A DNA stretch of 64,000 nt from Gammaproteobacteria bacterium (GCA_965207705.1 OZ242292.1:1033309-1097308); one strand, 5' to 3'; shown: positions 2,292 to 48,886, counted from the first letter of the stretch. Notes: a model not told the origin generated them from the letters alone. Numbers and translations are program-made.

Positions 2292-2312
2292 ATATAATAT
2301 CCTCTAATTTAA

Positions 2313-2341: not shown

Positions 2342-2693
2342 CTACAATCTATCTATTCTATATGCTATAGGTGGATGGGTTTCAAACATCTTGGCTATGA
2401 ATCCCTCTAGAGGCTCTTCTAATACTTGCATTTTTTCTAAAAATGTATCCAGTAATTATAAGACATGCCTCCTCTTCTTAATTATCTCAGCAAAGTTTAT
2501 AGTGCGGTCTGGCTCATCACTCAGCGCCTCCTTAACATCGCTTTCCGCTATAGTGTTTATCTGGATAATTAGTGAGCTTATGTCTTTATCTTTAATCTCT
2601 TGAAGGACATCTATTGCCTCGCCTCTTTCTGCAGGCTCTTTATAACCGTGCCTTAGATAACAATCAGCGAGAGTTATAAAACTATAATAATTC

Positions 2694-3224: not shown

Positions 3225-3302
3225 AGAGAGTTCCTTTTTATATATTTCTATTCTACATCATTTTAAATGGGATAAGAATACTTGAATTAATTATGGATGC
3301 AC

Positions 3303-3388
3303 TACGCGAGCATATCGATAGTACATCACAAGAGTTAGGCATCTTGCGGGCGGAGCGCAGCTCCGCCCCTACAACAGACCTGCGTAGT
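3303..3388. repeat. Hairpin repeat element, copy 1
   Basis: Stem gggcggagc (3348..3356), loop gca, stem gctccgccc (3360..3368), with conserved flanks gttaggcatcYtgcg and cctaca..gacctgcgt. Near-identical copy at 16024..16106 and a diverged copy at 37330..37400. All three lie just 3' of minus-strand genes. Confidence 0.7.
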
Positions 3389-3406
3389 CAGTTCAATCGC
3401 TTTACT

Positions 3407-5974
3407 TTATGGACGCTGGGCGGCTAAGCCACCGGGAGTGCAGGTGAGCGCGGGGTATTCGGAAGCAGTACCAAAGTCCCAAGCACGGGTCATGCCATCA
3501 GGACACGTTTCTGTTGTCCAATCTGCATAAATCATATCAGGCACAGCATTTGTTGAGTTCTGCAAGCCCTCGGTGCTTCTGCTTGCTTCTGGGTATAAAT
3601 CATTACTTCCTATTGTTTTTGTTACGCCGCTGGTCTCGTTATTCCAATAGGAGTTGGTGATGTTGGCTACCAGGTTTTTGGTGGTGGCTACCCCAAAGCC
3701 AACCAGACCACCATTATTCGGAGAACCACTAATAGACATGCTTGTAGCATAAGACGAGGTGATGGTACTCCCACGCCCATCACCAACCAGACCTCCAACA
3801 ATATCGTTTTTATTCTCGACACTCCCTATTGACGCATAAGACGAGGTAATCTCGCTCCCCGGCCCATTACCAACTAGACCTCCAACCGTCCCAAACCCTT
3901 TAACAATCCCGCCTGACGCATAAGACGAGGTAATCTCGCTCCCCGGCCCATTACCAACTAGACCTCCGACTGTAGTGCCCCCAATGACTCCTCCTACTGA
4001 CACATAAGACGAGAGGATGGTGGCATCCATCCCTCTACCAATCAAACCGCCGATACTTGAACCACTAGATTCAACCATAATCGTCCCCTCCGCGGAGCTA
4101 TTTATAATGCTCGCTCCATTGGCATGACCAGCCAACAGCCCTACATTTCTATTATTAGTGCCAGTAATGCTGGCAGAACGGATATGAACATTGCGCAACT
4201 GCACCCCCTCAGCAATCGCCCCAAACAGACCGACCGCATTTGCATAATCACCAGTAGGATTTGTTATAGTAAGATTGCTAATTACATAACCATTGCCGTT
4301 AAAAGTGCTACTGAAGAATACGGTTGTAGAAGTGCAAATACTAGAACTAACGGTGGAGCATCTGCCAATTGGCTGCCAGTTATCGCCATTATAGCCAGCA
4401 AGGGAGATGTTAGCGACAAGCTCATAGCCGCTGCATACTGTGATATCCTCGCCAGCCATGGTGCCATTGCCGCAGCCCTCGTCATTGCCAGCAGCGTCCG
4501 CAGTTGCTTTGAAGGATGTGCCTTGAAGGTTATGGCGGGTTTGGTTAAGCTCGTCCGCAGTGGTAATTTCTATTAATCCATCGCCGTCTTCATCCACATC
4601 CAGGAAATTAACTAAACCGTCTCCATCTAAATCAGGTCCAATAGCTACGGTAACGGTTTGTGGTATAGTTGCTTTGCCAGCATCGGTGCCGTTTAATGTC
4701 AAACTAACAATAAAATTATAGTATCCTTCCACATCTAGTCCATCTATGAATTCCTGCACCTCAATGCCACGGATTGTTTTGGCTGGGTCTATTATGGGGG
4801 GCAAGTCCACCAAAGAATCAGAACCTCTTTGGTAGCCTATGCTAATGCTCCCTATGTGCTCACCAGGATTAGTCCATATAAGAAGGGCACTCCTGTCGCC
4901 AGGTATCGCCCGTAACCCTATCACTGAAACAGCAGCGGTCGCGGTGATAAAAGGCGCAACACCTTCCCTGCCTGCATAGATGCCACCTAAGGTTAAACTA
5001 ACAGTGAAGGTATAGGATTGTCCGTTGGTTAATCCAGGTATAGTTTCTTCCACTCTAATATTAGGGTTTAGTTTAGCGCCGCTTGTTATACGAGTATTTT
5101 CTTCTTCATTAGTAATAGGATCTAAATAGCTTATGTCAATTGCTATTATATTATTTCCCACAGCGGGATTCATCCAGCTAAGCGTTATGCTTTCATGACC
5201 AAGAACCGCTTCTAATCCTATTACTGGGAATACGTTAGGAGTTGCCGTGGCAGTTGACGCAACAGGGTTTTCCCTGCCAGTATCAGTGCCGTTTAATGTC
5301 AAACTAACAGTGAAGGTATAGGATTGTCCGTTGGTTAATCCAGGTATAACTTGTTCCACGTTATTGCCATTGGTTAGTTGAGAGCTGCTTGTTATAGGAA
5401 AATTTCTCGTTACACCAGCAACAGTATCTGGGTAGCTTATGTCAATCCTTGCTATTTGCGCGGCAGGATTAGTCCAGCTAAGAGTCACATTGCCAGCGCC
5501 TGCAACTACAGCTAATCCTTCTACTGCAAAGATGTTAGGAGTTGCGGTGATAGATTGTACCGCGCCTTCCCTGCCAGCATCTGTGCCATTTAATGCCAAA
5601 GTAACATTGAAGGTATAAGATTGTCCGTTGGTTAATCCTGTTATGACTTGCTGGACGTTAGTTCTGCTGGTGTTTAGTTGAATGTCGTTTGTTATTACGA
5701 TTGGAGGTCTTGGGTTGGCAGAATTAGGTATTGGATTACTAGAATTGGTGATTCCGTAGTTTATGCTAATGTTTGCTATTGACGCGGCAGGATTATTCCA
5801 GCTAAGAGTTACATTGCCAGCGCCGGGGGCTGCTTGTAAATTCATTACTGTGAATTTGATGGGGGGAGTGGGAGGCACAGTAACTGAGACGCCATTGTTG
5901 ACGCCGCCTCCTTCACAAGCAGCGAGGAAAACTGTAAACGTAGTCATTATAAGAATCGTGTTAATATGTTTCAT
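3407..5974 (-). CDS. Large surface lipoprotein with repeated Fn3-like ~90-aa modules, then a Gly-rich C-terminal region of GGLVG-type (GLUG-like) repeats
   Basis: ORF 3407..6004. The likely start is the internal ATG (MKHINTILIMTTFTVFLAAC, lipobox LAAC). It has four to five degenerate modules (NVTLSWxNPAA...GLTNGQSYTFTVSLTLNGTDxGRE) and about seven C-terminal units (VGGLVGNGPGSEITSSYAS). Confidence 0.7.
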   Translation of the reverse strand: MKHINTILIMTTFTVFLAACEGGGVNNGVSVTVPPTPPIKFTVMNLQAAPGAGNVTLSWNNPAASIANISINYGITNSSNPIPNSANPRPPIVITNDIQLNTSRTNVQQVITGLTNGQSYTFNVTLALNGTDAGREGAVQSITATPNIFAVEGLAVVAGAGNVTLSWTNPAAQIARIDISYPDTVAGVTRNFPITSSSQLTNGNNVEQVIPGLTNGQSYTFTVSLTLNGTDTGRENPVASTATATPNVFPVIGLEAVLGHESITLSWMNPAVGNNIIAIDISYLDPITNEEENTRITSGAKLNPNIRVEETIPGLTNGQSYTFTVSLTLGGIYAGREGVAPFITATAAVSVIGLRAIPGDRSALLIWTNPGEHIGSISIGYQRGSDSLVDLPPIIDPAKTIRGIEVQEFIDGLDVEGYYNFIVSLTLNGTDAGKATIPQTVTVAIGPDLDGDGLVNFLDVDEDGDGLIEITTADELNQTRHNLQGTSFKATADAAGNDEGCGNGTMAGEDITVCSGYELVANISLAGYNGDNWQPIGRCSTVSSSICTSTTVFFSSTFNGNGYVISNLTITNPTGDYANAVGLFGAIAEGVQLRNVHIRSASITGTNNRNVGLLAGHANGASIINSSAEGTIMVESSGSSIGGLIGRGMDATILSSYVSVGGVIGGTTVGGLVGNGPGSEITSSYASGGIVKGFGTVGGLVGNGPGSEITSSYASIGSVENKNDIVGGLVGDGRGSTITSSYATSMSISGSPNNGGLVGFGVATTKNLVANITNSYWNNETSGVTKTIGSNDLYPEASRSTEGLQNSTNAVPDMIYADWTTETCPDGMTRAWDFGTASEYPALTCTPGGLAAQRP

Positions 5975-6101
5975 TACTTTGGTTGTTAATGTAAATACTG
6001 TCATAATTAATATCCTTTTGGTTTAAGTTCAATAGATATAATATTATATAACATAATTCAAGCAAATAATTATTAATAATAAACTGGTTTATAATTTCAT
6101 T

Positions 6102-22666: not shown

Positions 22667-25036
22667 CTATTGCTCTCGGCGCAAAATCAGTTCTTTCTTA
22701 TCCACTGATATGCGAATCACCCCGCCTTTCTTTTCAAGGCCACCAAACAGCATCATATCAGCTAGCGGCATTTTAATTTTCTCTTTAATTAAACGGATGA
22801 GCGGGCGGGCTCCCATGACTGCATCATAGCCGCGAGTGGCAAGCCATTTACGAGCAGCTGCATCTATCTCCAAGGTGATATTGCGCTCAATTACCTGCTC
22901 TTGCAATTCATCAATAAATTTAACCACCACCTGCTCCATAACTAACGGGGTTAGACCCTCAAACTGAATTATCGCATCTAATCGGTTGCGAAACTCGGGG
23001 CTAAAAGTACTGATAATTGCCTGAGAGCTATCATGAGGTTCGCCGCCAGTAAACCCGCTGGAACGTTGTTGTAACTTATCAGCGCCAGCATTAGTGGTAA
23101 CTATAACGATGGTGTTGCGAAAATCTGTCTTAACCCCGCTATTATCGGTAAGCGAAGCATAGTCCATTATCTGTAGCAGAATGTTATATATGTTGGGATG
23201 CGCTTTTTCCATTTCATCAAAAAGAACAATAGAGTGCGGCGCCTTCATCACTGCGGCAGTCAGCTGACTGCCATTATCAAAACCAACATAGCCGGGAGGC
23301 GCTCCCACCAGCCGAGCCACTGTATGGCTTTCGGAATATTCTGACATGTCAAATCTTATGAGATTAATCCCTGATAGTTGCGCCAATTTTAAACATACTT
23401 CTGTCTTGCCTACTCCTGTAGGACCTGCCAACATATAGCATCCTAATGGACGACCAGGTTGGTTAAGTTCTGCTCGCGACATCTTAATGGCGCTTACCAA
23501 TTGCTTAATTGCTGAGGTTTGTCCAAAAATATTTTGACATAACTCTTCTTCTAAATTTTTTAGCTGGAGGCGAGTATCATCAGTTAAACTCTCCAACGGT
23601 AAGCCAGTTACCTTCGCTACCGCCTGTTGTATCTCGTGTTTATCTATTAGAATCTTTTTTGCGCGGGCAGATTTATTATTGGATTTACCGCTGGGATAAT
23701 TGCCGATATTGGCTTTATAATTTTCTCCTATACCGCCAGCGCCGAAGCCGTTGCCTATCATAGATTTATTCTGCTCTATAATTTTTTGAAACGCTCCTGC
23801 CTCGTCTAGAATATCTATTGCCTTGTCTGGCTGATGCCTTGCGGTGATGTGCCGATCCGACAGAGTAATCGCTGCCTTCATCCCTTCCGCAGTGTAGCGC
23901 ACCTTATGGAAACTCTCCAGACGCGGCCTCACTCCTTCCAACACTCTATACGTCTCATCAAAATCAAGCTTACCAATCTCCACTGTCTGAAAGTGGCGAG
24001 ATAGAGTGTTATCCTTGCCTAATACCGAACGATAACTTTCGTAACTAGTTGACCCAATACAACGGATTGAGCCGCTGGAAATTGCTGGCTTAAATAACCC
24101 AGAAGCATCCACATTATCTGGTCCCGCCGCGCCAGCGCCTATTAGCGAATGTATGTCATCTATAAAGAGAATAGCGTTCTTTTTTTTCTTTAGTTGAGTA
24201 ATAACCGTCTTTACGCGTTTTTCAAAATCACCGCGATATCTTGTGCCTGCTAGTAAACTTCCTAAATCCAATGAGTATATTTCACAATTGGCAATGCTCT
24301 CCGGTACCTCACCTTCTTCTATTGCCATCGCCAGCCCGCGCACCATAGCCGTCTTGCCGACTCCTGGCTCTCCTATGAGCAGGGGATTGTTCTTGCGTTG
24401 GCGCGCTAAAACCTGTAATATGCGCTCCATAGCGTCTGCTCTGCCTACTAGAGGATCTGCTCCTTCCTTTATAACTTTTTCGTTAAGATTGAGCGCAAAG
24501 GTTTCAAGCACATTTTCGCCCTTGCCCGAAGGATAACCGAAAGTTGGCTGTGATTCAGGGTGCTTGGTGTGCGGTTGATAATAGGTGCCATCCAGAATAG
24601 GTTTGCTATATATATTTTGCAAGTAATCGTTAGCATCCTCTACATTAACCCCTTGATATTTCAGCAAATAAACCGCATTGCTGTCTTCCTCTTCAAACAT
24701 TGCGCGCAAAACCATATTACCTTTAACCGCATCTGTTGGATTTGGGGAAATGGCGATGGTCAGTGCCTCCGCTCGTTGCAATACCCGTTGCAGAGCAACC
24801 GTTGACTGAGCTTTGGCTCCTTTTTCGCTGGGAGAAATTTTATTCTCAGAGATAAACTCAGTAAGACGGGATTGTAGTTCTTTTATATCAACATTACAAA
24901 ATGATAATGCTTCTGCAGTATCTTTATCGCGACAAAGGGAAAACAGCAGGTACTCTAAAGTAACATAACCATTGTTGTGCCCGTTCGCCATTTTTTGCGC
25001 TTCCTGTAGGGCGAGTTGTAAATCCTTACTTAACAT
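22667..25036 (-). CDS. clpA: ATP-dependent Clp protease ATP-binding subunit ClpA
   Basis: 789 aa. Clp N-domain and two AAA+ modules with Walker A motifs (GEPGVGKTA and GPTGVGKTE). Downstream of clpS. Confidence 0.95.
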   Translation of the reverse strand: MLSKDLQLALQEAQKMANGHNNGYVTLEYLLFSLCRDKDTAEALSFCNVDIKELQSRLTEFISENKISPSEKGAKAQSTVALQRVLQRAEALTIAISPNPTDAVKGNMVLRAMFEEEDSNAVYLLKYQGVNVEDANDYLQNIYSKPILDGTYYQPHTKHPESQPTFGYPSGKGENVLETFALNLNEKVIKEGADPLVGRADAMERILQVLARQRKNNPLLIGEPGVGKTAMVRGLAMAIEEGEVPESIANCEIYSLDLGSLLAGTRYRGDFEKRVKTVITQLKKKKNAILFIDDIHSLIGAGAAGPDNVDASGLFKPAISSGSIRCIGSTSYESYRSVLGKDNTLSRHFQTVEIGKLDFDETYRVLEGVRPRLESFHKVRYTAEGMKAAITLSDRHITARHQPDKAIDILDEAGAFQKIIEQNKSMIGNGFGAGGIGENYKANIGNYPSGKSNNKSARAKKILIDKHEIQQAVAKVTGLPLESLTDDTRLQLKNLEEELCQNIFGQTSAIKQLVSAIKMSRAELNQPGRPLGCYMLAGPTGVGKTEVCLKLAQLSGINLIRFDMSEYSESHTVARLVGAPPGYVGFDNGSQLTAAVMKAPHSIVLFDEMEKAHPNIYNILLQIMDYASLTDNSGVKTDFRNTIVIVTTNAGADKLQQRSSGFTGGEPHDSSQAIISTFSPEFRNRLDAIIQFEGLTPLVMEQVVVKFIDELQEQVIERNITLEIDAAARKWLATRGYDAVMGARPLIRLIKEKIKMPLADMMLFGGLEKKGGVIRISVDKKELILRREQ

Positions 25037-25092
25037 CTTATGCTTTTACTTGCATGTATCCTGCATTTATATAGTCCCTGTTCTCTGTTCAG

Positions 25093-25422
25093 TTACTCTT
25101 GAATCCTTTCTATGACACACTCTAATAAACATTCGTTATCCGATGCCAGCTTTTCTACTTCTGATGCTTTGGTTTCAGCAATCTCTCGCACAAAGACGCC
25201 GCATGCTGCGCGCCCTTCTTTGCTCATCTGCGACATCATCTTGACAACCGAATTACGATCTAATCCAAAAACTCTTATCATAACCTGTTCAACGAAATCT
25301 GGCGGCGCCTTACTGTTGTGTATTACCACTACCCGATACTTAGACGGGGGTAAGGGATTGGCGCCAGAACGAGATCTACTTTCTGGTAGCGAACTAGCTG
25401 CGGGCTTATCATCAAATTTCAT
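25093..25422 (-). CDS. clpS: ATP-dependent Clp protease adaptor ClpS
   Basis: 109 aa, ClpS fold blocks (YRVVVIHNSKAPPDFVEQVMIRVF). Immediately upstream of clpA. Confidence 0.9.
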   Translation of the reverse strand: MKFDDKPAASSLPESRSRSGANPLPPSKYRVVVIHNSKAPPDFVEQVMIRVFGLDRNSVVKMMSQMSKEGRAACGVFVREIAETKASEVEKLASDNECLLECVIERIQE

Positions 25423-25555
25423 ACCTGTTATTATATAACTTTTTTATACTTTTGTTAAGTTTCATTAAAACTCTGTGTTTTTTTAATATGGCTGCTACCA
25501 GAAAGATTAATTGATGAAAAAAGAGATTTATGACATAAGTAACCTGGAAGAAATA

Positions 25556-26176
25556 TTAATTATTGCATTTGCTCCGTTTTGCTTTCTTTTTCCGATCAGA
25601 TTCGACTTGTTTCATCGCTTGCGCAGGATCATGTGGGCGTGAACCACTCGGCGGCTCTCTACTATATTTTTCATAATATGCTTGGAACACAAAATATGGA
25701 TATACATAATCCTTTACATAATCATATAAATTATCTGCATCAATATCAGTATGAAATGCCAAGCAGCACCAGCATATACCATTAAGTTTATTTAAATGCA
25801 CATCTCGCAACTCTTTACCTAATCTTTTTCTTGTCTTTTCAATCCTTCCTGATTTTTCGAAAACCATAGGGAAGCCCCATTGATCGCGGGCATCTTCATT
25901 ATTGCCAAGACGTATCTTAATTTTATATCCGGGTGGTTTATCGTCAACTAAATGCCTTAATTTGTTAGCATCTTCTCCTGGTTTTAATGGCCCAATACGC
26001 CATGGGCTTTTTGTACTTTCTCTAAAATACTTAACACGAAAATATAAATTCCCTTGTATAGTTTCATGTTTTGGATCGTATTCTAAATCAGGGAAAAATT
26101 TTTTTATCCGTTCGAAATGTTCTTTTGAATAAGCTATGCATAATCCTTTATTCAAATGGGCCGCTCTTAAATTCAA
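25556..26176 (-). CDS. Uncharacterised 206-aa protein, third gene of the patatin-nucleotidyltransferase operon
   Basis: ORF separated from the nucleotidyltransferase gene by only 12 nt. Cys/His cluster (GICWCCLAFH), basic C-terminal tail (KKKAKRSKCNN). AT-rich. No recognisable family. Confidence 0.5.
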   Translation of the reverse strand: MNLRAAHLNKGLCIAYSKEHFERIKKFFPDLEYDPKHETIQGNLYFRVKYFRESTKSPWRIGPLKPGEDANKLRHLVDDKPPGYKIKIRLGNNEDARDQWGFPMVFEKSGRIEKTRKRLGKELRDVHLNKLNGICWCCLAFHTDIDADNLYDYVKDYVYPYFVFQAYYEKYSREPPSGSRPHDPAQAMKQVESDRKKKAKRSKCNN

Positions 26177-26188
26177 AAGCTAGTTCTG

Positions 26189-27211
26189 TTATAAAGATAG
26201 CGCATAGGGCTTGACTGCATCAACAATTGGAATTGAGGCGGTTGCTGCTGGCGTTATTTTGCCTCCTGAATTATTATTAGAGGTGTCTCCATTTAATTTT
26301 CCGAACTTATCGCCGAAAATCTTTCTCCATTCTTTTACACATTCATCATGGTTCTCTGCTTTATAAGCATCATTAATGAAATTATTATAGTCATTAAATA
26401 TTTTTCTGAATTTAGAATAGCCGTCTTGATTCCATCTGTCTGCAAAATTTTCACTCTCAAGTATTGGATTTTGAATTCTGGGAAGAGCTTCATTCTGCTG
26501 TAAGTAATCGTTTATTCTATTGACAAGAGTTTTTAAGCAGGTAGGGAGATTAGCAAAATCCGCATCATCATACTCATCATCATCTTGCACCTGCGCCCCT
26601 ATGAGTGTAGTTAATATTATTGATTTAATATCAAATTTTTTACTATGGTCTCTAGAATACTTTAATAATCTTGTGACTTTACGAATAAGGTTCCCTCCAA
26701 TTTTTTTATTTTTTTCTACCAACCATTTTTTATAGCCATCGCCATCAGTTAGCTCATAGCATTTATCATTTGAATTACAAATATAATATAAATAATCATT
26801 CTCCCCATTAGCAACTCTTATACAAGGAACCAGATCGAGATGAAAATCTCCCGCATAATCTAGTGTGACGCATCTATTATTCTTTTCGACTATATCCTTA
26901 TAGTTTGCATCTGCACGAAATACTTCATATATATCATTCACATAATCTACAAATGTATTTGCATCAAACTCATCACCCTTTATCATTATTAATACATCAG
27001 CGTCAAATCCAGTATCAGCGTCAACTGGTTTAATTATAGTTTTTAATGCATAGGATCCTTGAGTTTCAAAAGTTCTATAGGGTACGTATTTATCTTTCAA
27101 ATAACTAGTGATGATATCAATTTTTGATTCCAATAGCGCTACGCGTGATTTATTGAGATTGACTTCGTCTTTAAGAAAGTCATCAAAATAACCTATAATT
27201 TCGTTAATCAT
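26189..27211 (-). CDS. Pol-beta-fold nucleotidyltransferase with cGAS/DncV-like (CD-NTase/SMODS-type) active-site pattern
   Basis: 340 aa. GS (res 52-53), then 10 residues, then D-A-D (KPVDADTGFDADV), and a downstream hDh strand (FHLDLVP), i.e. GS-x(n)-[DE]h[DE]...h[DE]h. Helical C-terminal half. Directly downstream (65 nt) of a patatin phospholipase gene. Confidence 0.55.
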   Translation of the reverse strand: MINEIIGYFDDFLKDEVNLNKSRVALLESKIDIITSYLKDKYVPYRTFETQGSYALKTIIKPVDADTGFDADVLIMIKGDEFDANTFVDYVNDIYEVFRADANYKDIVEKNNRCVTLDYAGDFHLDLVPCIRVANGENDYLYYICNSNDKCYELTDGDGYKKWLVEKNKKIGGNLIRKVTRLLKYSRDHSKKFDIKSIILTTLIGAQVQDDDEYDDADFANLPTCLKTLVNRINDYLQQNEALPRIQNPILESENFADRWNQDGYSKFRKIFNDYNNFINDAYKAENHDECVKEWRKIFGDKFGKLNGDTSNNNSGGKITPAATASIPIVDAVKPYALSL

Positions 27212-27276
27212 GGCTAGTTAATAGGGCTAGTATCTTAAATTTCAAGTACTATTATTCGTTTTAATTGAGAATCTAA

Positions 27277-28251
27277 TTATTTTGAGAAAAATTTCTTAAA
27301 ATCTTCTTTTTTACCCTTAAATTTTTCTTCCGCCCTTCTCTTAAGGGCGGGGATTACCTTAATGTCATCAAGAGATATTTTTTCAACAGTATAATCGACT
27401 CTCATATATCTATCTTTAAGCATCAATTCCAGTGAATTATGAGGGAAGTCTTTTTGGATATGCATAACAAAATCAATGAGTTTTTTATTCTTCCATCCCG
27501 TTAAAAAACCCCATTTCTTTGAAAAATCTTTCTGCTTATAACCTTCTCTCGACTTGCCTGTACCTAATGAAAGTAATTTTATATCAGCGTGCTGAGATTC
27601 AAAGTTACTTAATGCTTCGATATAGCCCACCAAAGCAGGATTATTAGCCCACAGCCCTCCATCACATAACAAGGCACCCTTAACCATGGTGGGGTCAAAG
27701 TAAGTTGGCGCACAACAAGAAGCTAAAACTGCCTGCCATAGAGGGATGCATCCATCGCGTGCATACCCTTTTTTTCCTCTTATTTTTTCCTGATAATTAG
27801 ATTTAAATACCTGAACCCCCCAATTAGAAATATTTACAGCATTTATAATCAAGGGTTTATCTATATCTTTTAATAATGTGCCTCCCATCTCCTTCTCTAA
27901 AAATTTTCTAAGAGAACTAGTTTTATATATAGAGGCACATAGCCCCTCCCCCAAAAGTTGTTCTAAAAATCTACAAAGTATATTATGGTTAGTTTTTTTA
28001 AAAATACCAGGGGAACTATTTTCAAATTGATCTATTAATCTATCTAAGGGGTATCCTATCGCAACAGCCGCTGCTACAATAGCTCCCGTGCTTGTTCCAA
28101 CAATTAAATCAAAATATTCCCTAATATCAATGCTCAGTTCCTTCTCTATTTTGTGAAGAATCATAGCCGGGTATATTCCACGAACCCCGCCGCCATCAAT
28201 TGTTAGAATTTTAATTTCACCCCTATAGCCCTTTAGTTTTTCCTTCATCAT
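27277..28251 (-). CDS. Patatin-like phospholipase (CapV-like effector)
   Basis: 324 aa. Oxyanion-hole motif DGGGVRG (res 19-25), GxSxG nucleophile motif GTSTG, catalytic-dyad Asp in LLCDGGLWANNP. Confidence 0.85.
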   Translation of the reverse strand: MMKEKLKGYRGEIKILTIDGGGVRGIYPAMILHKIEKELSIDIREYFDLIVGTSTGAIVAAAVAIGYPLDRLIDQFENSSPGIFKKTNHNILCRFLEQLLGEGLCASIYKTSSLRKFLEKEMGGTLLKDIDKPLIINAVNISNWGVQVFKSNYQEKIRGKKGYARDGCIPLWQAVLASCCAPTYFDPTMVKGALLCDGGLWANNPALVGYIEALSNFESQHADIKLLSLGTGKSREGYKQKDFSKKWGFLTGWKNKKLIDFVMHIQKDFPHNSLELMLKDRYMRVDYTVEKISLDDIKVIPALKRRAEEKFKGKKEDFKKFFSK

Positions 28252-28354
28252 TCAGATTAAGGTTATTTGTAGCAGCTCAATCTTTAAGCCCCATCTCCAT
28301 AAAATTCTTGAGTCATAGCGGCTAATCTCAACTTTCATTTTCTGTGCTGCGTAA

Positions 28355-29056
28355 TTACAGTTGTTCTGAATATAGCTTACTTATACTCGCTTTATCAAAT
28401 ATTCCTGGCAAAAATACTATAAAGCCATTATCAAGACGTTTTAGTTTGCCTTTCCATTCTTCTTGCCAACGGGCAAATGGTACCGATGGTTGTTTTTTTA
28501 TAAGTGTAAAAGGATCACCTTTAGGAATGTCATAAGTTATATTAATAATAATTTTCTTTCTCTTGGTAATCGGGCGAGGTACTCGCTCTTCGCGACTTAA
28601 AGTTTCTTTCTTTATTTGAATAGGTATTATCTGCTTCCCGTTACTTACTTGCATGTCGATGCCTTGCCAATCGAGTTCTGCATTCATTTCTACTGTATCA
28701 AATATTTCTTCGGCAATGTAACCAGCATGAATTTGGGTAAGCAAGCTTGCCCAAGTACGATATATTCTGGCAGGAAGTCCTCTATGAAAAGTTTCATAGC
28801 TAAATTGAGATTTCCTTCTAAATTCTTCCAGTTCTGGCTTCAAATCTTTAGAATACTTTGCATAAAACTTCTCATAATTAAGATAGTTAGAATAATTATC
28901 CCAGTATGTTTGATAAATATGCTTAAGGGCTTGTATATTGCGAGGTAAATCAAGTTCTACTATTTTAATTCGGGAGTATTTCTCTCTATAAGCTGAGGTG
29001 TCTATTCCGGAGAGGAATTTCTCAAATTTCTCTACTGATCGCATTGTTGCAACCAA
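28355..29056 (-). CDS. Hypothetical 233-aa protein, candidate type II restriction endonuclease partner of the upstream methyltransferase
   Basis: Start overlaps the methyltransferase stop by 25 nt (translational coupling). AT-rich. Possible degenerate PD-(D/E)xK-like segment (QGIDMQVSNGKQIIPIQIKKE). No family recognisable by eye. Confidence 0.4.
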   Translation of the reverse strand: MVATMRSVEKFEKFLSGIDTSAYREKYSRIKIVELDLPRNIQALKHIYQTYWDNYSNYLNYEKFYAKYSKDLKPELEEFRRKSQFSYETFHRGLPARIYRTWASLLTQIHAGYIAEEIFDTVEMNAELDWQGIDMQVSNGKQIIPIQIKKETLSREERVPRPITKRKKIIINITYDIPKGDPFTLIKKQPSVPFARWQEEWKGKLKRLDNGFIVFLPGIFDKASISKLYSEQL

Positions 29057-30075
29057 CCATTTGCAAGGTTTATATAATCTTTATTTAGTTCTATCCCCAA
29101 ATAATTTACTCCCAATTGCTTTGCCGCCACACATTCAGAACCAGAACCAGCAAACGGCACTAATGCCGTCCCAACCTCTTCGCCTGCCACAGCAGATCTG
29201 ATGAGTTGCTGGGTTAAATATAATGGTTTTTGTGTGGGGTGTTTAATAACAGAATGCTCGCGATGATGTTTTAGCTCGGAAGGAGGGAATATCTGATTAT
29301 CGCAGGTTTGACATAGAAACCATCTCTCGCTCGCACCAGCGCCGCCTGCTAAAGCCGGATAATGCAATACGTCACGCGGCAAGGCGCCGCGTGGATGCAC
29401 ATTGTAAACTGTATCTTTGTTTTGATTGTTATAACGGCAGGGCACGCTCAAACGCTTCTTGCCGCCAAGTTTTTTATAACTCTCGGTATAAGGAATACGG
29501 ATCTCATCAATGTTGATAATTGGGCGTTTGCCTTTCCAAAAACAAATTATGGTTTCATGGCTTCTCTGCCAAAACTTGGATGAAGGAACTGCCTTGTTCG
29601 TGTAGTGCCAAGCCAGCCACCTTTGTTTATCCAAGGGAAAGCGCACTGCCAAGTGCGCAATTATTTCGCTCAAGCCATATACATAAACGGGCTTGCCCTG
29701 CTTAACTAAGCGTAAGCATTCGTGCAACCATTGCTCACACCACGAGATATATTCATCGATATGAAGATTGTCGTCATCAATTTTGTTGCCAAAATCCTTG
29801 CCAATGTTGTAGGGCGGATCTGCAATGATAACGTCAAATAAATCATTTTGTTTTATATTTTGCAATACCTTGAGTGCATCTCCACAGATTATGGAGTTTA
29901 ATGGAGGTAATTCAGGCGATTGGTTATCTTTTGGTTTAATTGGATTTAAAAATATTTCTTTTTGTTGCAGAGGATTATAATCCTTGGCGGTAACTCCCTC
30001 CCGCGCAGTCTCCCGTGCAGTATCCGAGCGGAGATTATTCTGTTGGAGTTTCAATGTTCGCGTTGCGTTTGCCAA
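29032..30075 (-). CDS. DNA methyltransferase, beta-class amino-methyltransferase (motif IV DPPY before motif I FAGSG); N6-adenine or N4-cytosine specific
   Basis: 347 aa. IIADPPYNIG (motif IV, res ~85) precedes the C-terminal AdoMet-binding VPFAGSGSECVAAKQLGVNYLGIELN (motif I). This is the circular permutation typical of beta-group N6A/N4C MTases. Confidence 0.85.
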   Translation of the reverse strand: MANATRTLKLQQNNLRSDTARETAREGVTAKDYNPLQQKEIFLNPIKPKDNQSPELPPLNSIICGDALKVLQNIKQNDLFDVIIADPPYNIGKDFGNKIDDDNLHIDEYISWCEQWLHECLRLVKQGKPVYVYGLSEIIAHLAVRFPLDKQRWLAWHYTNKAVPSSKFWQRSHETIICFWKGKRPIINIDEIRIPYTESYKKLGGKKRLSVPCRYNNQNKDTVYNVHPRGALPRDVLHYPALAGGAGASERWFLCQTCDNQIFPPSELKHHREHSVIKHPTQKPLYLTQQLIRSAVAGEEVGTALVPFAGSGSECVAAKQLGVNYLGIELNKDYINLANGWLQQCDQ

Positions 30076-30132
30076 AAGTAATATGCCAAGTTAATTATTA
30101 ATGTTAATATTATACTCGATTTACAAGGGGGG

Positions 30133-31074
30133 CTATGTGGTAAATAGTGGCTCCCCCATTTTGATGGGGGTGTTAGGGTTGGGGACAAGGGATAGGTCGC
30201 GGTTTTCCAATAGCATGACTACGGTGGAGCCCATTTCAAAGTATCCAAGTTCATCTCCTTTGTTAAATTTTTGTGGGGTAGTGCGCTTCTCGGCGGCAGA
30301 ACGGGCGTGATAAACTGATCCCCAAGCCGTCCCGATAGACGAAACAAATAAGGCGGCAACCATCACATAAGCCATCATTCCATATTCTGTTGCAAATACA
30401 CAAGACAAACGCTGATTATGAGCGTATAAAGAGGGGAATCGTTTCACGCTTTTTTCGTTCACCGAGTAAAGCTCGCCTGGAATGAAGTTGGCAAGAGTAA
30501 GCGTAGCGGCGCAGGGGACATGGACGCGATGATAGTTATGCGGCGCCAAATAGATAACCGTGCTTTGCCCGTTGCTGAGAGATTTAACGCGAGAGTCATC
30601 TTCTTCTAAACCAAGGAGTTCGCTAACCGAATAGTCCGCTCCCTTGATGTTGCGGATAATTGGTGACTGGGGTGGCGACTTAGATGGGGAGGGGGGCGGA
30701 GATGATGCGGCATGCGAAATTGTAGGCGTCGTTGCACCTGGGCTAGCGGAATCAGATATGCCTGCAGAACTCAAAGCGACGGTTGTCTTAGCTGATATTC
30801 TGCCATGCTGAATTATGCCGCCATTGGTTAAGGTTCCGTCTGCTGGAGATACAAACGCCGAGGCAGATAAAGGGCGGGCATTCGCTTTGAGGCGGCGCGT
30901 GAAAAAATCGTTGAAGCTAATATAATTGCGTAGCTGCGAATGTAACGCCTCTTGCATATTTGGCTTGTATATAAGTATAAACAGATAGATTAACAGATTC
31001 TTTAACCAACGAATACGACAGTCAGTTAAGGCGCGGGCGGCGGCGGATAAATTCTTTTTCAAGTTCATTCGCAC
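30133..31074 (-). CDS. psd: Phosphatidylserine decarboxylase proenzyme
   Basis: 313 aa. Psd blocks (YISFNDFFTRRL, YHRVHVPC, C-terminal self-cleavage region FEMGSTVVMLL). Carries a ~43-aa Ser/Pro-rich insert (res ~100-142). Confidence 0.85.
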   Translation of the reverse strand: MRMNLKKNLSAAARALTDCRIRWLKNLLIYLFILIYKPNMQEALHSQLRNYISFNDFFTRRLKANARPLSASAFVSPADGTLTNGGIIQHGRISAKTTVALSSAGISDSASPGATTPTISHAASSPPPSPSKSPPQSPIIRNIKGADYSVSELLGLEEDDSRVKSLSNGQSTVIYLAPHNYHRVHVPCAATLTLANFIPGELYSVNEKSVKRFPSLYAHNQRLSCVFATEYGMMAYVMVAALFVSSIGTAWGSVYHARSAAEKRTTPQKFNKGDELGYFEMGSTVVMLLENRDLSLVPNPNTPIKMGEPLFTT

Positions 31075-32761: not shown

Positions 32762-32949
32762 AATAATATTTTACACCAAGCGGGGGCGGGTAACCAGAAG
32801 CTCTGTAGAAACCATATCGTGAATTCCAACAACTTAACACACCCCCTAACACCCCCCTTTAACAAATCCCCTTAACACCCTCCCCCCTTAACAAATATAA
32901 GGTTTGTTTGCTACAATATGGACTATATAAACTATATGAACACCTCTAT

Positions 32950-33951
32950 ATGAATAAATGGACTTTGCGCATTCCTGGCAGTAGCGGCAACATGGGCGCT
33001 GGCTTTGATTGTTTTGGTTTAGCGCTCAGCATATACAATGAGTTTTCATGGACACCCGCTGATGAGTATTCGCTATCATTTTCTGGTTCAGTGGAAATTG
33101 CCGCAGATTCACGTCAACTCAACAAAAATTATGTTGTCAAGGCATATAAGCATGCCTGCGATTTTCTTGACATTGCCGAACGTCCTTTTGCTATTCACAC
33201 AGAAGTAAATATTCCTTTGCGCGGCGGGATGGGTTCCAGTGGCACCGCAATTATAGCTGGCTGCGCTATTGCTTTCCTACAAAAGAAAGAGCAAGCCGGG
33301 GGAACAGGAGGAATAGAGGAAGCAGGGGGAACAGGGGGTATCCAAGAAGTATCTAACAAGCAGCTCTCATATATAGATAATGATTTGCGGCACCAGATTC
33401 TGCAGTTAGCAAGCGAATTAGAAAAACATCCAGACAATGCTGCCCCCAGCATTTATGGCGGCTTTGTAATAAGCACCGTAGCAAAAGAAGTACGTGCTTA
33501 TAAATTCCCGGTATCTTCAAAGATAAAGTGCTGGATTATTATGCCGCAAGCCGAAGTGTCCACCAACGAATCGCGCCTTAGCTTGCCGCCAGACGTGCCG
33601 CGGCAAGAAGCGGTGTTTAATATCTCCCATGGCGCGCTAACTGCTGTTGCCTTTGCCACGCAAAAATATGATTTACTTAAAAACGCGGTGATGGATAAAA
33701 TGCATGAAGCACAACGCGATAATATTTATAATTACCAAGACCTTAAACAGCTGCTGTTAAATGCGGGGGCGCTAAGCGTTTCGCTGAGTGGTAGCGGTCC
33801 TACCATGTTGGTGCTGGTGGAGGAGCTATCAGAAGAATTAAAAGCAACAGTAAATAAGCATTTCAATGGTGTTAAAATAGATTACAAGGAAACTTTAATG
33901 GAAGTGGACAACCAAGGAATGACGATTAACTGCGAAGCATTAAATAAATGA
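32950..33951 (+). CDS. thrB: Homoserine kinase (GHMP kinase family)
   Basis: ORF 32908..33951. The likely start is the internal Met (MNKWTLRIPGSSGNMGAGFDCFGLAL, the ThrB N-terminal motif). GHMP motif PLRGGMGSSGTA. Carries an in-frame 27-bp tandem duplication (GGTGGIEEA/GGTGGIQEV). Confidence 0.8.
   Translation: MNKWTLRIPGSSGNMGAGFDCFGLALSIYNEFSWTPADEYSLSFSGSVEIAADSRQLNKNYVVKAYKHACDFLDIAERPFAIHTEVNIPLRGGMGSSGTAIIAGCAIAFLQKKEQAGGTGGIEEAGGTGGIQEVSNKQLSYIDNDLRHQILQLASELEKHPDNAAPSIYGGFVISTVAKEVRAYKFPVSSKIKCWIIMPQAEVSTNESRLSLPPDVPRQEAVFNISHGALTAVAFATQKYDLLKNAVMDKMHEAQRDNIYNYQDLKQLLLNAGALSVSLSGSGPTMLVLVEELSEELKATVNKHFNGVKIDYKETLMEVDNQGMTINCEALNK
33295..33348 (+). repeat. 27-bp tandem duplication inside thrB
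   Basis: gccgggggaacaggaggaatagaggaa followed by gcagggggaacagggggtatccaagaa. It encodes a duplicated AGGTGGI(E/Q)E segment. Confidence 0.7.
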
Positions 33952-47191: not shown

Positions 47192-48886
47192 TTATCTCTC
47201 AATAATATAGATATTATCCTGCTCTGTTGTCTGCAGATATTTAGGGTAGTGGGTTATTTTTTGCATTTGTTCTCCATACTTCTCATACAACCTCCCCCAT
47301 TCATCATCAGGGATGCCTGAACGATGAAATATCACTATATCATAATCACTCAAGATAAATTCATCAACTAGTAAACAACGAAAGTGCTTAGGGATGTAGT
47401 TTTGGTGAGCTAAATTGCAACTATCAATAAAATAAAGATTAAAAGGAGTTTCTTCAGTAGCTATTTTATGCGTAAGGGCAAAGGGTAGCACAGCACTTAT
47501 GCTGTCTCTTAGCTCATAGACAAATATATTCGTAACTTGATTTTCCTTTAGTTTGATATTAGTTTTATGGGCGTAGAATTGATATTCACGAGTTTTATAC
47601 TCCTGGAAATCGGATATGGTGGTCGGAATGCTAAAGAATAAATAAAATAATATGAACACGGGAACAAATAATCTTAATGCCGTTGTTGAGCTTTTACCCT
47701 TCAGATAAAAACATGCCGCGAGTATAAGGGCAAACTCAGGAATGCAATAATAATATCGTTGCGTAAACTTAAAAAATAATATCGCCATTATGTAAAGAAT
47801 CCCTCCAGCAAAAAGCATAATGGAAAACCTATGTCGTTGCAGCTTATTAATATCTTTGATATAACAAGCCACCATGATTAAAATAAGGGGAAAGAGCGGG
47901 TATGTGATAAATAACCCATATATAAAAGATAAATACTTGAAGTTATAACTTACTCCATAAACATATTTGCTTACAATTATAAAAAAGTGGAATGTCGCAT
48001 ACATCACTACAAAAAATAATGGCGCCAGTAGGATTCCTATTTCCAAAGGATTATTCTTAACAAAGGTAAGTGGTTTACGCAGGGCATTAACAATTGTAGT
48101 ATTGCTGTCAATCATGCGGAAAATTAACGCAGTGAGAGCAAATCCGCCAAAAAACACAAACATCGGCTCTTTAAAGTAAATCGCCGTATGCGCCAACGTC
48201 AAAGCAAAAATAAGATATCGGGTTTTATTGGTCTTATAAAATTGAATAACCGTATAAAGAAAAAGAACTGTGAGGAATATGGTGTTTCTTTCAGGAATTA
48301 CTAGAGTTGAAACAGGGATTAAGAAAGAGGCGTTTAATCCTATGAATAAAATTACTAATACTCGTTGCCATAACCGCACAAACGGAATAATTTTATTTAA
48401 GAAATATGCTGTGGCTAAAAACTCTATGAAAGTAACCGCATAAAGAAAATAATAAGAACAGTTTAGCCAATGGAATGGCAATGCCAGAAAACTTAAATCT
48501 TGATGCATAAAAGGGCCGAACCTATATCCCCAAGTAATCAATGGAGCCAAAAGATGCTTATTACATAGATATACATCTATATATAAAGGTTCTTCTCCAC
48601 GTTTAGGGCTGGCAAGATAAAAGTTATTCCAAAATAGAAAAATAGCATAAAGCCCCAGCAAGAACAAGGCAAGATAATCAGCTGGCGAACGCCCTTTCCA
48701 TGCCTGGTTGCTGTTAGGATGATTTACAAATAAAGCCTTTTCTTTTTCATAAGACCATTGCTGACTATAGCGTGTCACCCACAAACAATAAATGGTAAGT
48801 AAAGTGAAAGCAAGCACTAAAGCAATCGCTAAAATTAAGAACTCGGGATGTTGAGGCAATTTAGCAAAATTATCATAAAGAGACAT
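47192..48886 (-). CDS. Polytopic membrane protein, paralogue A of a three-member family (~12 TM plus ~150-aa C-terminal soluble domain); possibly a GT-C-like glycosyltransferase
   Basis: 564 aa. About 70% identical by eye to 50683..52383 and 52383..54089. Shared blocks: MSLYDNFAKL, HPNSNQAWKGR, NNFYLA, FYKTNKTRYL, EFILSDYD, YGEQMQKIT, NIYIIE. Confidence 0.7.
   Translation of the reverse strand: MSLYDNFAKLPQHPEFLILAIALVLAFTLLTIYCLWVTRYSQQWSYEKEKALFVNHPNSNQAWKGRSPADYLALFLLGLYAIFLFWNNFYLASPKRGEEPLYIDVYLCNKHLLAPLITWGYRFGPFMHQDLSFLALPFHWLNCSYYFLYAVTFIEFLATAYFLNKIIPFVRLWQRVLVILFIGLNASFLIPVSTLVIPERNTIFLTVLFLYTVIQFYKTNKTRYLIFALTLAHTAIYFKEPMFVFFGGFALTALIFRMIDSNTTIVNALRKPLTFVKNNPLEIGILLAPLFFVVMYATFHFFIIVSKYVYGVSYNFKYLSFIYGLFITYPLFPLILIMVACYIKDINKLQRHRFSIMLFAGGILYIMAILFFKFTQRYYYCIPEFALILAACFYLKGKSSTTALRLFVPVFILFYLFFSIPTTISDFQEYKTREYQFYAHKTNIKLKENQVTNIFVYELRDSISAVLPFALTHKIATEETPFNLYFIDSCNLAHQNYIPKHFRCLLVDEFILSDYDIVIFHRSGIPDDEWGRLYEKYGEQMQKITHYPKYLQTTEQDNIYIIER

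What the first reader, a model, noticed from the sequence alone, without database searches (positions are those of the whole stretch)
25423..30132. AT-rich defence island between clpS and psd: a type II R-M module plus a CBASS-like patatin/nucleotidyltransferase operon
Five co-directional minus-strand genes interrupt an otherwise housekeeping stretch, with clpS-clpA upstream and psd-panC-panB downstream. They are a DPPY methyltransferase, a 233-aa ORF, a patatin phospholipase, a Pol-beta nucleotidyltransferase and a 206-aa ORF. By eye the 25.5-29 kb part is much more AT-rich than its flanks, which suggests horizontal acquisition. No tRNA, integrase, transposase or obvious flanking direct repeats were seen, so the way it was acquired is unclear. 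An R-M system stacked with an abortive-infection-type system is the usual pattern of defence islands.
Basis: partly seen in the sequence, partly recalled or inferred. Interest (0 to 1): 0.8.

Follow-up and report, generated by a model that had tools for sequence, protein, structure and literature searches.

The report
R-M plus E2-CBASS defence hotspot
Between the housekeeping genes psd and clpS sit two ordinary anti-phage systems, an older restriction-modification pair and a recently added three-gene CBASS suicide-signalling cassette, at a site that related strains carry empty or filled with other cargo.

Summary
Five intact minus-strand genes lie between psd and clpS, four of them clearly AT-rich. 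No tRNA, integrase or flanking repeats are present.

This makes the locus a type II R-M module plus an E2-only (type II-short) CBASS.

Nine contigs of the same uncultured lineage show four states at this site:
- empty (4 contigs)
- a lone D12 methyltransferase (2)
- the R-M module alone (1)
- R-M plus CBASS (2)

So the island is nested. The R-M module (28248-30131) is about as diverged between clades as the core genome (94.6%). The CBASS cassette (25490-28247) is 99.8% identical between its two carriers, and its TCGA density is about 15 times that of the TCGA-depleted rest of the window.

It begins at the patatin start codon and brings no upstream DNA of its own.

The cyclase-E2 pair differs from the studied Serratia system. 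Its tail is short and predicted disordered, it ends in KPYA rather than Gly, and this E2 lacks the SEC-C motif usual in its family.

Verdict: a well-resolved but ordinary defence hotspot, made of new members of known kinds.

The parts
29032..30075 (-). Beta-class N6_N4 DNA methyltransferase (347 aa), probably N6-adenine. It carries DPPY (IIADPPYNIG) and a C-terminal FAGSGS motif.
   Evidence: PF01555 at 4.3e-36. PADLOC MTase_II at 4.9e-42. The nearest solved relatives are MboIIA, RsrI and CcrM. It is 96.5% identical to the L092 copy and 62.5% identical to the MTase paired with a TaqI-family REase in the unrelated locus L093. GC3 is 0.419, which is host-like.
28355..29044 (-). TaqI-family type II restriction endonuclease (229 aa from the ATG; 233 aa from the TTG at 29056). 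It overlaps the 3' end of the MTase gene.
   Evidence: PF09573 RE_TaqI at 1.7e-38, covering profile positions 2-217 of 229. PADLOC REase_II at 2.8e-33. There are 698 homologues, and the sources name them 'TaqI family restriction endonuclease'. It keeps all 30 family-invariant residues.
28248..30131 (-). The R-M module as a unit: its own 5' leader, the MTase, the REase and the 103-bp 3' spacer.
   Evidence: The whole segment is present without CBASS in L092 at 94.6% identity (window 30668..28248 = L092 8389..10797).
28252..28354 (-). REase-patatin spacer. It belongs to the R-M module and is the only non-coding DNA upstream of the CBASS genes.
   Evidence: It is conserved in the R-M-only allele L092, right up to the patatin ATG. 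Promoter-like matches here are no more frequent than chance.
25490..28247 (-). CBASS cassette (capV, CD-NTase, E2; 2,758 bp). It replaces 34 bp of the R-M-only allele.
   Evidence: Breakpoints come from blastn against L092. The cassette is 99.8% identical between the window and L002, while their flanks are 92-98% identical. GC3 is 0.25-0.30. TCGA density is 2.9 per kb, against 0.2 per kb in the rest of the window.
27277..28251 (-). CapV-type patatin phospholipase effector (324 aa). GGGVRG, GTSTG and DGG motifs are present.
   Evidence: NCBIfam NF041079 CBASS_lipase scores 229.1 bits against a cut-off of 200. PADLOC Effector/Phospholipase at 2.3e-85. PDB relatives are CapV and the cGAMP- and cUMP-AMP-activated phospholipases.
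26189..27211 (-). CD-NTase (cGAS/DncV-like cyclase, 340 aa). The family-invariant active-site residues G52, S53, D70, D72 and D126 are present.
   Evidence: SMODS at 1.1e-25. PADLOC Cyclase at 1.2e-108. The AF2 model has pLDDT 89.6. All top Foldseek hits are CD-NTases.
26189..26278 (-). Predicted disordered C-terminal tail of the cyclase (residues 312-340). It carries the conserved KPYA motif (residues 334-337, window 26201-26212) followed by LSL.
   Evidence: pLDDT is below 50 for residues 312-340. KP[YFW][AGS] is conserved in 79 of 120 relatives. It is followed by 1-7 residues in 61 of the 65 free-standing proteins that carry the motif, and by a linker plus an E2 domain in the fusions.
25556..26176 (-). 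E2-only CBASS accessory protein (206 aa, UBC fold). The putative active site is H127 ... C137-C138 (window 25763-25768). It has no SEC-C zinc knuckle.
25423..25489 (-). Conserved clpS leader with a strong sigma-70-like match (25458-25430). It marks the right edge of the hotspot in every allele.
   Evidence: Homology to all alleles resumes at 25489. The promoter match scores 11 of 12 positions.
30133..30135 (-). psd stop codon, which marks the left edge of the hotspot. It is TAG (ACCACATAG) in the window, L002 and the D12 alleles, and TAA (ACCATTTAA) in the empty and R-M-only alleles.
   Evidence: The junction sequences were read directly.

Best explanation
The region is a composite anti-phage locus in a variable intergenic hotspot between psd and clpS. 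It has two layers.

Layer 1 (28248-30131) is a type II restriction-modification operon. A beta-class adenine methyltransferase is translationally coupled to a TaqI-family endonuclease. The methyltransferase most likely protects TCGA sites in host DNA and the endonuclease most likely cuts unmethylated TCGA in incoming DNA.

Layer 2 (25490-28247) is an E2-only (type II-short) CBASS with three genes. On infection the CD-NTase makes a cyclic nucleotide signal. That signal activates the CapV-type patatin phospholipase, which degrades the membrane and kills the cell before phage are released. The small UBC-fold E2 regulates the cyclase. By analogy with the Serratia system, it trims the flexible cyclase tail after the conserved KPYA alanine, takes the new C-terminus onto its active-site cysteine (C137 or C138), and passes it to lysines, which primes or activates the cyclase.

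The R-M module is an old resident of this site in the lineage. The CBASS cassette was added recently, directly downstream of the endonuclease gene and starting at its own start codon. It therefore probably depends on transcription from the R-M module. The combined block then moved between strains by homologous recombination through the flanking core genes.

Shown here: gene identities, folds, conserved catalytic residues, allele states, breakpoints and relative ages.

Inferred: TCGA specificity, the identity of the cyclic nucleotide, the E2 chemistry, co-transcription, and that gain rather than loss explains the CBASS difference.
For: Gene identities come from Pfam, PADLOC and NCBIfam.

CapV scores above the equivalog cut-off.

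Cyclase: the active-site residues are invariant, the model is confident and the fold matches are all CD-NTases.

Gene-fusion evidence links the cyclase and E2. Proteins of about 530 aa join a 50%-identical cyclase to an ORF5-like domain. The closest free-standing cyclases are each followed by a gene of about 195 aa that carries a SEC-C motif.

The reference mechanism for E2-CBASS is in bioRxiv 10.1101/2022.05.25.493364 and PMC12948482.

Hotspot states: empty in L001, L004, L090 and L091; D12 MTase in L003 and L005; R-M only in L092; R-M plus CBASS in the window and L002.

Ages: R-M is 94.6% identical between clades, against about 93-94.5% for the core. The island is 99.8% identical between the window and L002, against 92-98% for their flanks, and the near-identical tract runs from 24794 to 30153.

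TCGA: observed/expected is 0.16 outside the island and 1.27 inside it. In L002 all 12 sites lie inside the island. The unrelated genome L093, which carries a homologous M-R pair, has 0 sites where 17.3 are expected.
Against: - No experiment supports any activity.
- TCGA avoidance is equally strong in strains that lack the R-M module, so it does not tie the specificity to this enzyme. The R-M genes themselves keep 4 TCGA sites.
- The methyltransferase is beta-class. From my own knowledge, M.TaqI is gamma-class, and no M.TaqI structure appeared among the PDB hits.
- The cyclase lacks two features reported for E2-CBASS cyclases: the conserved C-terminal Gly and the structured helix/sheet E2-recruiting domain (against PMC12948482).
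- This E2 lacks the SEC-C motif found in 23 of 29 relatives and has PPSG in place of PPCG, so it could be impaired.
- The direction of change (CBASS gain, or loss in L092) is not proven. L092 carries an unexplained 34-bp filler.
- Promoter and terminator scans are at chance level.
Confidence: 0.85

Rival explanations
1. The five genes arrived together in one horizontal transfer, as a single pre-assembled R-M plus CBASS island.
For: The five genes are contiguous and co-directional. The whole block is nearly identical between the window and L002.
Against: L092 carries the R-M module alone at the same site. Homology stops exactly at the patatin start codon. R-M divergence between clades (94.6%) matches the core genome. 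The homologous M-R pair occurs without CBASS in an unrelated genome. The closest cyclase-E2 pairs sit in other contexts, with SAVED effectors and no R-M.
Confidence: 0.08
2. R-M plus CBASS is the ancestral occupied state, and L092 lost the CBASS cassette by deletion. On this view CBASS is not a recent addition.
For: Defence cassettes are often lost. The right-hand junction (ATATT|AAAAAAAC) is shared by L092 and the window. Only one R-M-only contig was seen.
Against: CBASS is seen in only two clade-A strains, at 99.8% identity. It has far lower GC3 than the host. It is not depleted of TCGA (2.9 sites per kb, against 0.2 per kb in the rest of the window), which argues against long residence. L092 has a unique 34-bp filler rather than a clean deletion scar.
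Confidence: 0.15
3. The E2-like ORF5 is a decayed remnant, so the system now works as a minimal two-gene (type I-like) CBASS, or does not work at all.
For: ORF5 ends at the first cysteine of the family's SEC-C motif. It has PPSG where the family has PPCG, and a 2-residue insertion next to the catalytic CC. It is only about 36-43% identical to its nearest relatives.
Against: The ORF is intact and 100% identical in L002. It keeps the invariant H127, C138, P175 and H182. It folds confidently as a UBC domain. Six of 29 relatives, and the fusions P0080 and P0097, also lack SEC-C, so the motif is dispensable in part of the family.
Confidence: 0.12
4. The insert is the cargo of a self-mobile element, such as an integrative element, transposon or phage satellite.
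For: The region is foreign in composition and variable between strains.
Against: There is no integrase, transposase or recombinase among the five genes. There is no tRNA, and no target-site duplication or terminal inverted repeats. Nothing similar is found on known plasmids or phages beyond 130 bp of capV. Four different contents share the same core-gene borders, which fits recombination through the flanks.
Confidence: 0.05

Closest known systems
E2-CBASS (type II-short CBASS), studied in Serratia marcescens as SmCdnG-SmE2 (Yan et al., bioRxiv 10.1101/2022.05.25.493364; Xiao et al. 2026, PMC12948482; PDB 8hsb, 8yjy)
   Different: The cyclase is short (340 aa, against about 400). Its tail is predicted to be disordered, where SmCdnG has a structured helix plus three-stranded sheet. 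The conserved tail residue is Ala (KPYA), not Gly. The cyclase clade cannot be assigned, and the best TM-scores are to clade D, not G. Most E2s of this subfamily carry a C-terminal SEC-C zinc knuckle, which this copy lacks. The effector here is a patatin lipase. The preprint describes the Serratia operon as also encoding a putative exonuclease.
Vibrio cholerae capV-dncV-cap2-cap3 (type II CBASS with an E1-E2 fusion and a JAB peptidase)
   Same: The gene order begins with capV followed by the cyclase. The effector is a CapV-type patatin that meets the NCBIfam equivalog. The cyclase has a flexible C-terminal tail that is the conjugation substrate.
   Different: There is no E1/adenylation domain and no Cap3/JAB here. 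The cyclase is only distantly related to DncV (Foldseek E about 4e-10, TM about 0.6).
TaqI / M.TaqI type II restriction-modification system (TCGA)
   Same: The endonuclease is a full-length member of Pfam RE_TaqI. The host core genome is strongly depleted of TCGA. The partner methyltransferase is predicted to be adenine-specific, which would fit TCG(m6A).
   Different: The methyltransferase is beta-class (N6_N4, DPPY). From my own knowledge, M.TaqI is gamma-class. The specificity is untested.
Core-genome defence hotspots, meaning variable defence cargo between conserved core genes (my own knowledge of the literature on E. coli, Pseudomonas and Vibrio; no paper on this was read here)
   Same: Different defence cargos, or none, occupy the same site between the same two core genes in closely related strains. 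The cargo carries no mobility genes. Exchange by flanking homologous recombination is inferred from a near-identical tract ending inside the flanking genes.
   Different: Here the hotspot is a single short intergenic spacer (73 bp when empty) in a small (about 1.8-2.2 Mb) genome of an uncultured lineage. The step-wise nesting (R-M alone, then R-M plus CBASS) is directly visible.

Membership tests
CBASS (any type) | CD-NTase with an intact GS...DxD...D active site | tested here: met
   SMODS at 1.1e-25 and PADLOC Cyclase at 1.2e-108. G52, S53, D70, D72 and D126 are invariant across 56 sequences. All top Foldseek hits are CD-NTases.
CBASS (any type) | An adjacent effector gene that responds to a cyclic nucleotide | tested here: met
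   The patatin gene lies 65 bp upstream of the cyclase gene. NCBIfam CBASS_lipase scores 229 bits against a cut-off of 200. Activation by a nucleotide was not tested.
E2-CBASS / type II-short CBASS | A free-standing E2 (UBC fold with a catalytic Cys) encoded next to the cyclase | tested here: met
E2-CBASS / type II-short CBASS | No E1/adenylation domain and no JAB peptidase in the operon | tested here: met
   Only five ORFs of 60 aa or more lie on the coding strand of the insert. None of them hits ThiF or Prok-JAB.
E2-CBASS / type II-short CBASS | Conserved C-terminal glycine on the cyclase as the conjugation site (Yan et al.; Xiao et al.) | tested here: not met
   The conserved residue in this subfamily is Ala: KPYA 63, KPYS 8, KPWA 4, KPYG 3 and KPFA 1, with no such motif in the other 41 of 120 relatives. 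The window has VKPYALSL.
E2-CBASS / type II-short CBASS | Structured C-terminal helix plus three-stranded sheet on the cyclase that recruits the E2 (PMC12948482) | tested here: not met
   In the AF2 model the last helix ends at residue 299, and residues 312-340 have pLDDT below 50.
E2-CBASS / type II-short CBASS | Clade G cyclase (73.65% of E2-CBASS cyclases per PMC12948482). This is typical rather than defining. | tested here: inconclusive
   PDB sequence hits are spread over BcCdnD, SmCdnG, BfCdnB and BdCdnG. Foldseek E-values are similar for clades C, G, D and B, and the best TM-scores are to clade D.
E2-CBASS / type II-short CBASS | Covalent cyclase-E2 thioester or isopeptide, and poly-cGASylation | not testable with these tools
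   This needs biochemistry. Cyclase-E2 gene fusions in the family are only indirect support.
CapV (CBASS patatin phospholipase) | Equivalog-level sequence match, plus GGGxRG, GxSxG and DGG motifs | tested here: met
   NF041079 scores 229.1 bits against a cut-off of 200. GGGVRG, GTSTG and CDGG can be read in the translation. The match to solved CapV structures is at 3e-26.
Type II restriction-modification system | Separate MTase and REase genes that are adjacent and co-oriented | tested here: met
   PF01555 and PF09573 both score above their gathering cut-offs. The two genes overlap by 13-25 nt. The same pairing recurs in L092 and in the unrelated loci L093 and L094, with matching divergence of the two genes (62.5% and 62.0%).
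TaqI isoschizomer (TCGA specificity) | Cleavage of TCGA, blocked by m6A methylation | tested here: inconclusive
   Support is circumstantial only: membership of the family, TCGA observed/expected of 0.16 in the host core, and 0 of 17.3 expected sites in L093. The avoidance is also seen in strains without the module.
TaqI isoschizomer (TCGA specificity) | An M.TaqI-like gamma-class methyltransferase partner | tested here: not met
   The partner is PF01555 (beta-class, DPPY near the N-terminus and FxGxG near the C-terminus). No M.TaqI structure is among the PDB hits.
Horizontally acquired genomic island | Presence/absence polymorphism among close relatives, plus deviant composition | tested here: met
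   Four states were seen in nine contigs. GC3 is 2.4-3.7 sd below the reference mean for four of the five genes. The MTase is not deviant.
Horizontally acquired genomic island | Mobility hallmarks: integrase or transposase, a tRNA target, direct repeats | tested here: not met

The most novel reading that the evidence does not exclude
The cyclase-E2 pair may represent a mechanistically distinct branch of E2-CBASS. In this branch a short, disordered cyclase tail ending in KPYA-x(1-7) would be the substrate, in place of the ubiquitin-like folded C-terminal domain and glycine of SmCdnG. Conjugation would go through alanine. The E2 would normally use a SEC-C zinc knuckle, perhaps for targeting or dimerisation, which this copy has dispensed with. 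The natural cyclase-E2 fusions would then be self-processing precursors. A second element of this reading is that the promoterless CBASS cassette is driven by the R-M operon, which would couple a first-line and a last-line defence in one transcript.
Probability: 0.3. Interest if true: 0.45.

Novelty: new member of a known kind. Interest (0 to 1): 0.3.

Why it matters
This locus is a naturally resolved example of how a defence island is built step by step. One 73-bp intergenic site in a single uncultured lineage is seen empty, with an orphan methyltransferase, with an R-M module, and with R-M plus CBASS. The breakpoints are known to the base, and no mobility genes are involved.

It also points to a large but unstudied subfamily of E2-CBASS, defined by a KPYA-tailed cyclase, an E2 with a SEC-C motif, and frequent cyclase-E2 fusions. 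That subfamily fails two features reported as conserved in the one characterised system, so it would be a useful second model for how a lone E2 controls a bacterial cGAS.

None of this changes what is known about R-M or CBASS in principle.

Tried and rejected
- ORF5, word-index search.
- Host identity. The cluster look-up gave no protein names. A paper search for the run accession found nothing.
- Flanking repeats or target-site duplication. Only short pairs at chance level were found. A perfect 12-nt inverted repeat (25379-25390 and 25494-25505) is about what chance predicts for this span (my own estimate).
- Promoter and terminator scan. It was at chance level, so co-transcription of R-M and CBASS remains an inference from the breakpoint position.
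- Plasmid or phage origin. There was no meaningful DNA match.
- Cyclase clade and signal molecule. These could not be resolved.
- GC-skew sign change near 29.7 kb. No clear signal appeared at the scale of the whole window, so I dropped it.
- Separate origin of the MTase. I first read its host-like GC as a sign of this. I rejected that because the homologous pair in L093 shows the same offset, with the REase more AT-rich than the MTase, and the two genes co-diverge.

Full report
**Observation.** Five minus-strand ORFs fill the space between clpS (25093-25422) and psd (30133-31074). GC drops to 31-37% over 25.25-29.25 kb, against 43-50% in the flanks. By gene, GC3 is 0.254 (ORF5), 0.248 (cyclase), 0.300 (patatin) and 0.267 (REase). 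The 34 reference ORFs in the window have a mean of 0.390 (sd 0.038, minimum 0.312). The methyltransferase, at 0.419, is host-like. The window has no tRNA and no Rfam family, and the region has no convincing flanking repeats.

**Gene identities.**
- ORF1 is a beta-class N6_N4 methyltransferase: PF01555 at 4e-36, PADLOC MTase_II at 5e-42, with nearest solved relatives MboIIA, RsrI and CcrM.
It has 698 homologues and keeps all 30 family-invariant residues.
- ORF3 is a CapV-type patatin. It scores 229 bits against the NCBIfam CBASS_lipase equivalog, above the cut-off of 200, and matches solved CapV structures.
- ORF4 is a CD-NTase: SMODS at 1e-25 and PADLOC Cyclase at 1e-108. Its active-site residues G52, S53, D70, D72 and D126 are invariant across 56 sequences. 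The AF2 model has pLDDT 89.6, and every top Foldseek hit is a CD-NTase.

**The 206-aa ORF5.** ORF5 had no Pfam, NCBIfam or PDB sequence match, and the word-index search returned only itself. An exhaustive HMMER search found 69 relatives. They are free-standing proteins of 190-250 aa, and also the C-terminal domain of proteins of about 530 aa whose N-terminal part is a cyclase about 50% identical to ORF4.

The family consensus is DLHL..D.S.CCLG ... VYPYFVWQAYY ... PPCGEY.H, followed by a SEC-C zinc knuckle. H127 and C138 are invariant, and C137 is nearly so. All 29 aligned members hit PADLOC CBASS E2 models, the best at 1.5e-27, and 23 of 29 carry PF02810 SEC-C.

ORF5 is therefore the E2 of an E2-only (type II-short) CBASS. 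The closest free-standing cyclase relatives (53-54% identity) are each followed by a gene of about 195 aa carrying a SEC-C motif, but they use Saf_2TM-SAVED effectors and an HTH plus M78 peptidase pair. The cyclase-E2 pair is thus the conserved core, and the effector is interchangeable.

**Comparison with the characterised E2-CBASS.** In the Serratia system the E2 acts as a cysteine protease that removes the residue after a conserved C-terminal Gly. It then forms a thioester to C101 and an isopeptide to K159, and builds poly-cGAS chains that activate the enzyme (bioRxiv 10.1101/2022.05.25.493364). Cyclases of this class are reported as long, mostly clade G, and equipped with a C-terminal helix plus three-stranded sheet that recruits the E2 (PMC12948482).

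The cyclase here is 340 aa. Its folded core ends near residue 300, and residues 312-340 are predicted to be disordered. The conserved tail motif is (T/V)(K/R)PYA followed by 1-7 residues, and the window has VKPYALSL. The clade cannot be assigned.

So the system works like an E2-CBASS and meets the architectural definition. It fails two features described as conserved in the studied example.

The window's E2 is also atypical within its own family:
- It stops at the first SEC-C cysteine.
- It has PPSG where the family has PPCG.
- It has a 2-residue insertion before the CC.

SEC-C-less relatives do exist.

**Synteny and history.** Contigs from long-read metagenome assemblies (ENA ERZ25069759-64) that encode a 100% identical ClpS, or a ClpA from the same 90%-identity cluster, show four states of the psd-clpS spacer:

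| State | Contigs |
|---|---|
| Empty (psd directly followed by clpS; 73 bp of allele-specific spacer in L001/L004) | L001, L004, L090, L091 |
| One opposite-strand D12-class methyltransferase | L003, L005 |
| MTase plus REase only | L092 |
| All five genes | window, L002 (L007 is a 100% identical 4.7-kb Logan contig) |

Homology to the empty alleles ends at 25489 and at about 30132-30138. Homology to the R-M-only allele runs from psd through the REase and the whole 103-bp spacer. It stops at the patatin start codon (28248) and resumes at 25489. L092 has a unique 34-bp filler in between. There are no target-site duplications.

Flank identities define two clades:
- Clade A (window, L002, L001, L003, L004) is 97-98.6% identical within itself.
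- Clade B (L090, L091, L092) is 95.5-97% identical within itself.
- The two clades are about 93% identical to each other.

The R-M module occurs in both clades and is 94.6% identical between them, which is about the core divergence. The empty spacer is also conserved in both clades. By contrast, the whole island differs at only 10 of about 4,640 positions between the window and L002, while their flanking genes are 92.5-98.3% identical. The near-identical tract runs from about 24794 in clpA to about 30153 in psd.

The simplest reading has three steps. The R-M module is an old, segregating occupant of the hotspot. The CBASS cassette was added recently. The block then spread by homologous recombination through the flanks. 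Loss of CBASS in L092 cannot be excluded.

**Specificity clues.** TCGA is strongly avoided in the host core, with observed/expected of 0.16 outside the island and 1.27 inside. Half of the window's 24 sites lie in the 4.6-kb island. In L002 all 12 sites in 20 kb are inside the island. L093, an unrelated genome with a homologous M-R pair (62.5% and 62.0% identity), has 0 TCGA sites where 17.3 are expected.

This fits a TCGA-specific system, and it fits CBASS being a newcomer. But strains without the module avoid TCGA equally, and GGCC, GATC, CCGG and CTAG are also depleted. The evidence is therefore circumstantial.

The REase is more AT-rich than its MTase in both lineages, so the mixed composition within the R-M module is a property of the pair and not a sign of separate origins.

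**Origin.** Nothing similar occurs on known plasmids or phages, apart from 130 bp inside another capV gene. The nearest cyclase is only 53-54% identical, so the donor is unknown. The host itself is poorly represented: the best ClpA among GTDB species representatives is 46% identical.

**Verdict.** The systems are standard (type II R-M and type II-short CBASS with a CapV effector), so the novelty is that of new members of known kinds. The modest extra interest lies in the cleanly resolved, nested four-state hotspot and in the unstudied KPYA/SEC-C branch of E2-CBASS.

Noticed in passing
L003:8737-9834 and L005:8737-9834 (same psd|clpS site, opposite strand): In two clade-A strains the hotspot holds a lone D12-class (Dam-like) methyltransferase of 365 aa and nothing else. 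The gene is very AT-rich (GC 0.297), and the two copies are 97.5% identical. No partner endonuclease gene is present. GATC is strongly avoided in the lineage, with observed/expected of 0.17-0.28.
   Followed up: partly
window, whole (1-64000): Several 4-bp palindromes are strongly under-represented by a Markov-2 expectation: GGCC 0.12, GATC 0.29, TCGA 0.29, CCGG 0.36 and CTAG 0.43. This suggests long exposure of the lineage to several R-M systems. Other loci of the lineage carry further R-M genes, for example N6_N4 MTase plus DUF6996/6997 in L001, and N6_N4 MTase plus an NgoFVII-like REase in L005.
   Followed up: partly
window 966-6004: A second cluster of TCGA sites (6 sites between 1327 and 3816) coincides with eukaryote-like repeat proteins. 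These are a 330-aa protein made of Tcp10_C repeats (966-1958) and an 865-aa fn3/GLUG protein (3407-6004). This is probably another foreign or fast-evolving segment. Such proteins are typical of host-associated bacteria (my own knowledge).
   Followed up: partly
window 47192-48886, 50683-52383, 52383-54089: Three similarly sized ORFs (564, 566 and 568 aa, all on the minus strand) in a low-GC stretch (about 34-36%) have no Pfam match at all. Whether they are paralogues was not tested.
   Followed up: no
window 59312-60817 and the adjacent 60818-61105: dnaA is encoded here, next to an AT-rich intergenic stretch and a local minimum of cumulative GC skew. This is probably the replication origin, about 30 kb from the defence hotspot.
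   Followed up: no
window 30675-30713 (inside psd) and 33300-33400 (inside the GHMP-kinase ORF 32908-33951): psd carries a Ser/Pro-rich low-complexity insert that is hypervariable between strains: 24 gap positions and 92.5% identity between the window and L002, with psd lengths from 283 to 313 aa. The GHMP-kinase-like ORF (thrB by my label; Pfam GHMP_kinases in relatives) contains a tandem GGTGGI(E/Q)E duplication that also varies in length.
   Followed up: no
P0041, P0067, P0023, P0036, P0123 and others (proteins of about 510-560 aa): There are many natural fusions of a CD-NTase to an ORF5-like E2 domain and a terminal SEC-C zinc knuckle. The KPYA motif sits at the domain junction. If the E2 trims after KPYA, as SmE2 trims after Gly, these would be self-processing precursors. 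Such fusions are mentioned in PMC12948482, but I found no mention of the SEC-C feature in what I read.
   Followed up: partly
L089:1540-9582: One metagenomic contig carries two CBASS systems side by side. The first is a full type II system (cyclase, ThiF-type E1-E2, JAB, SAVED effector). The second is the E2-only type related to the window's system, separated from the first by an HTH plus M78 peptidase pair.
   Followed up: no
window 26687-26694 (inside the CD-NTase gene): Four of the ten window/L002 differences in the island cluster within 8 bp. This looks like a single multi-base event rather than independent point mutations.
   Followed up: no
window 22667-25036 (clpA) and loci L008-L087: The best ClpA match among 185,579 GTDB species representatives was only 46% identical. 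Either the host lineage has no close representative there, or the pattern-based scan missed it. The genomes are small (1.8-2.2 Mb, some as single contigs).
   Followed up: partly
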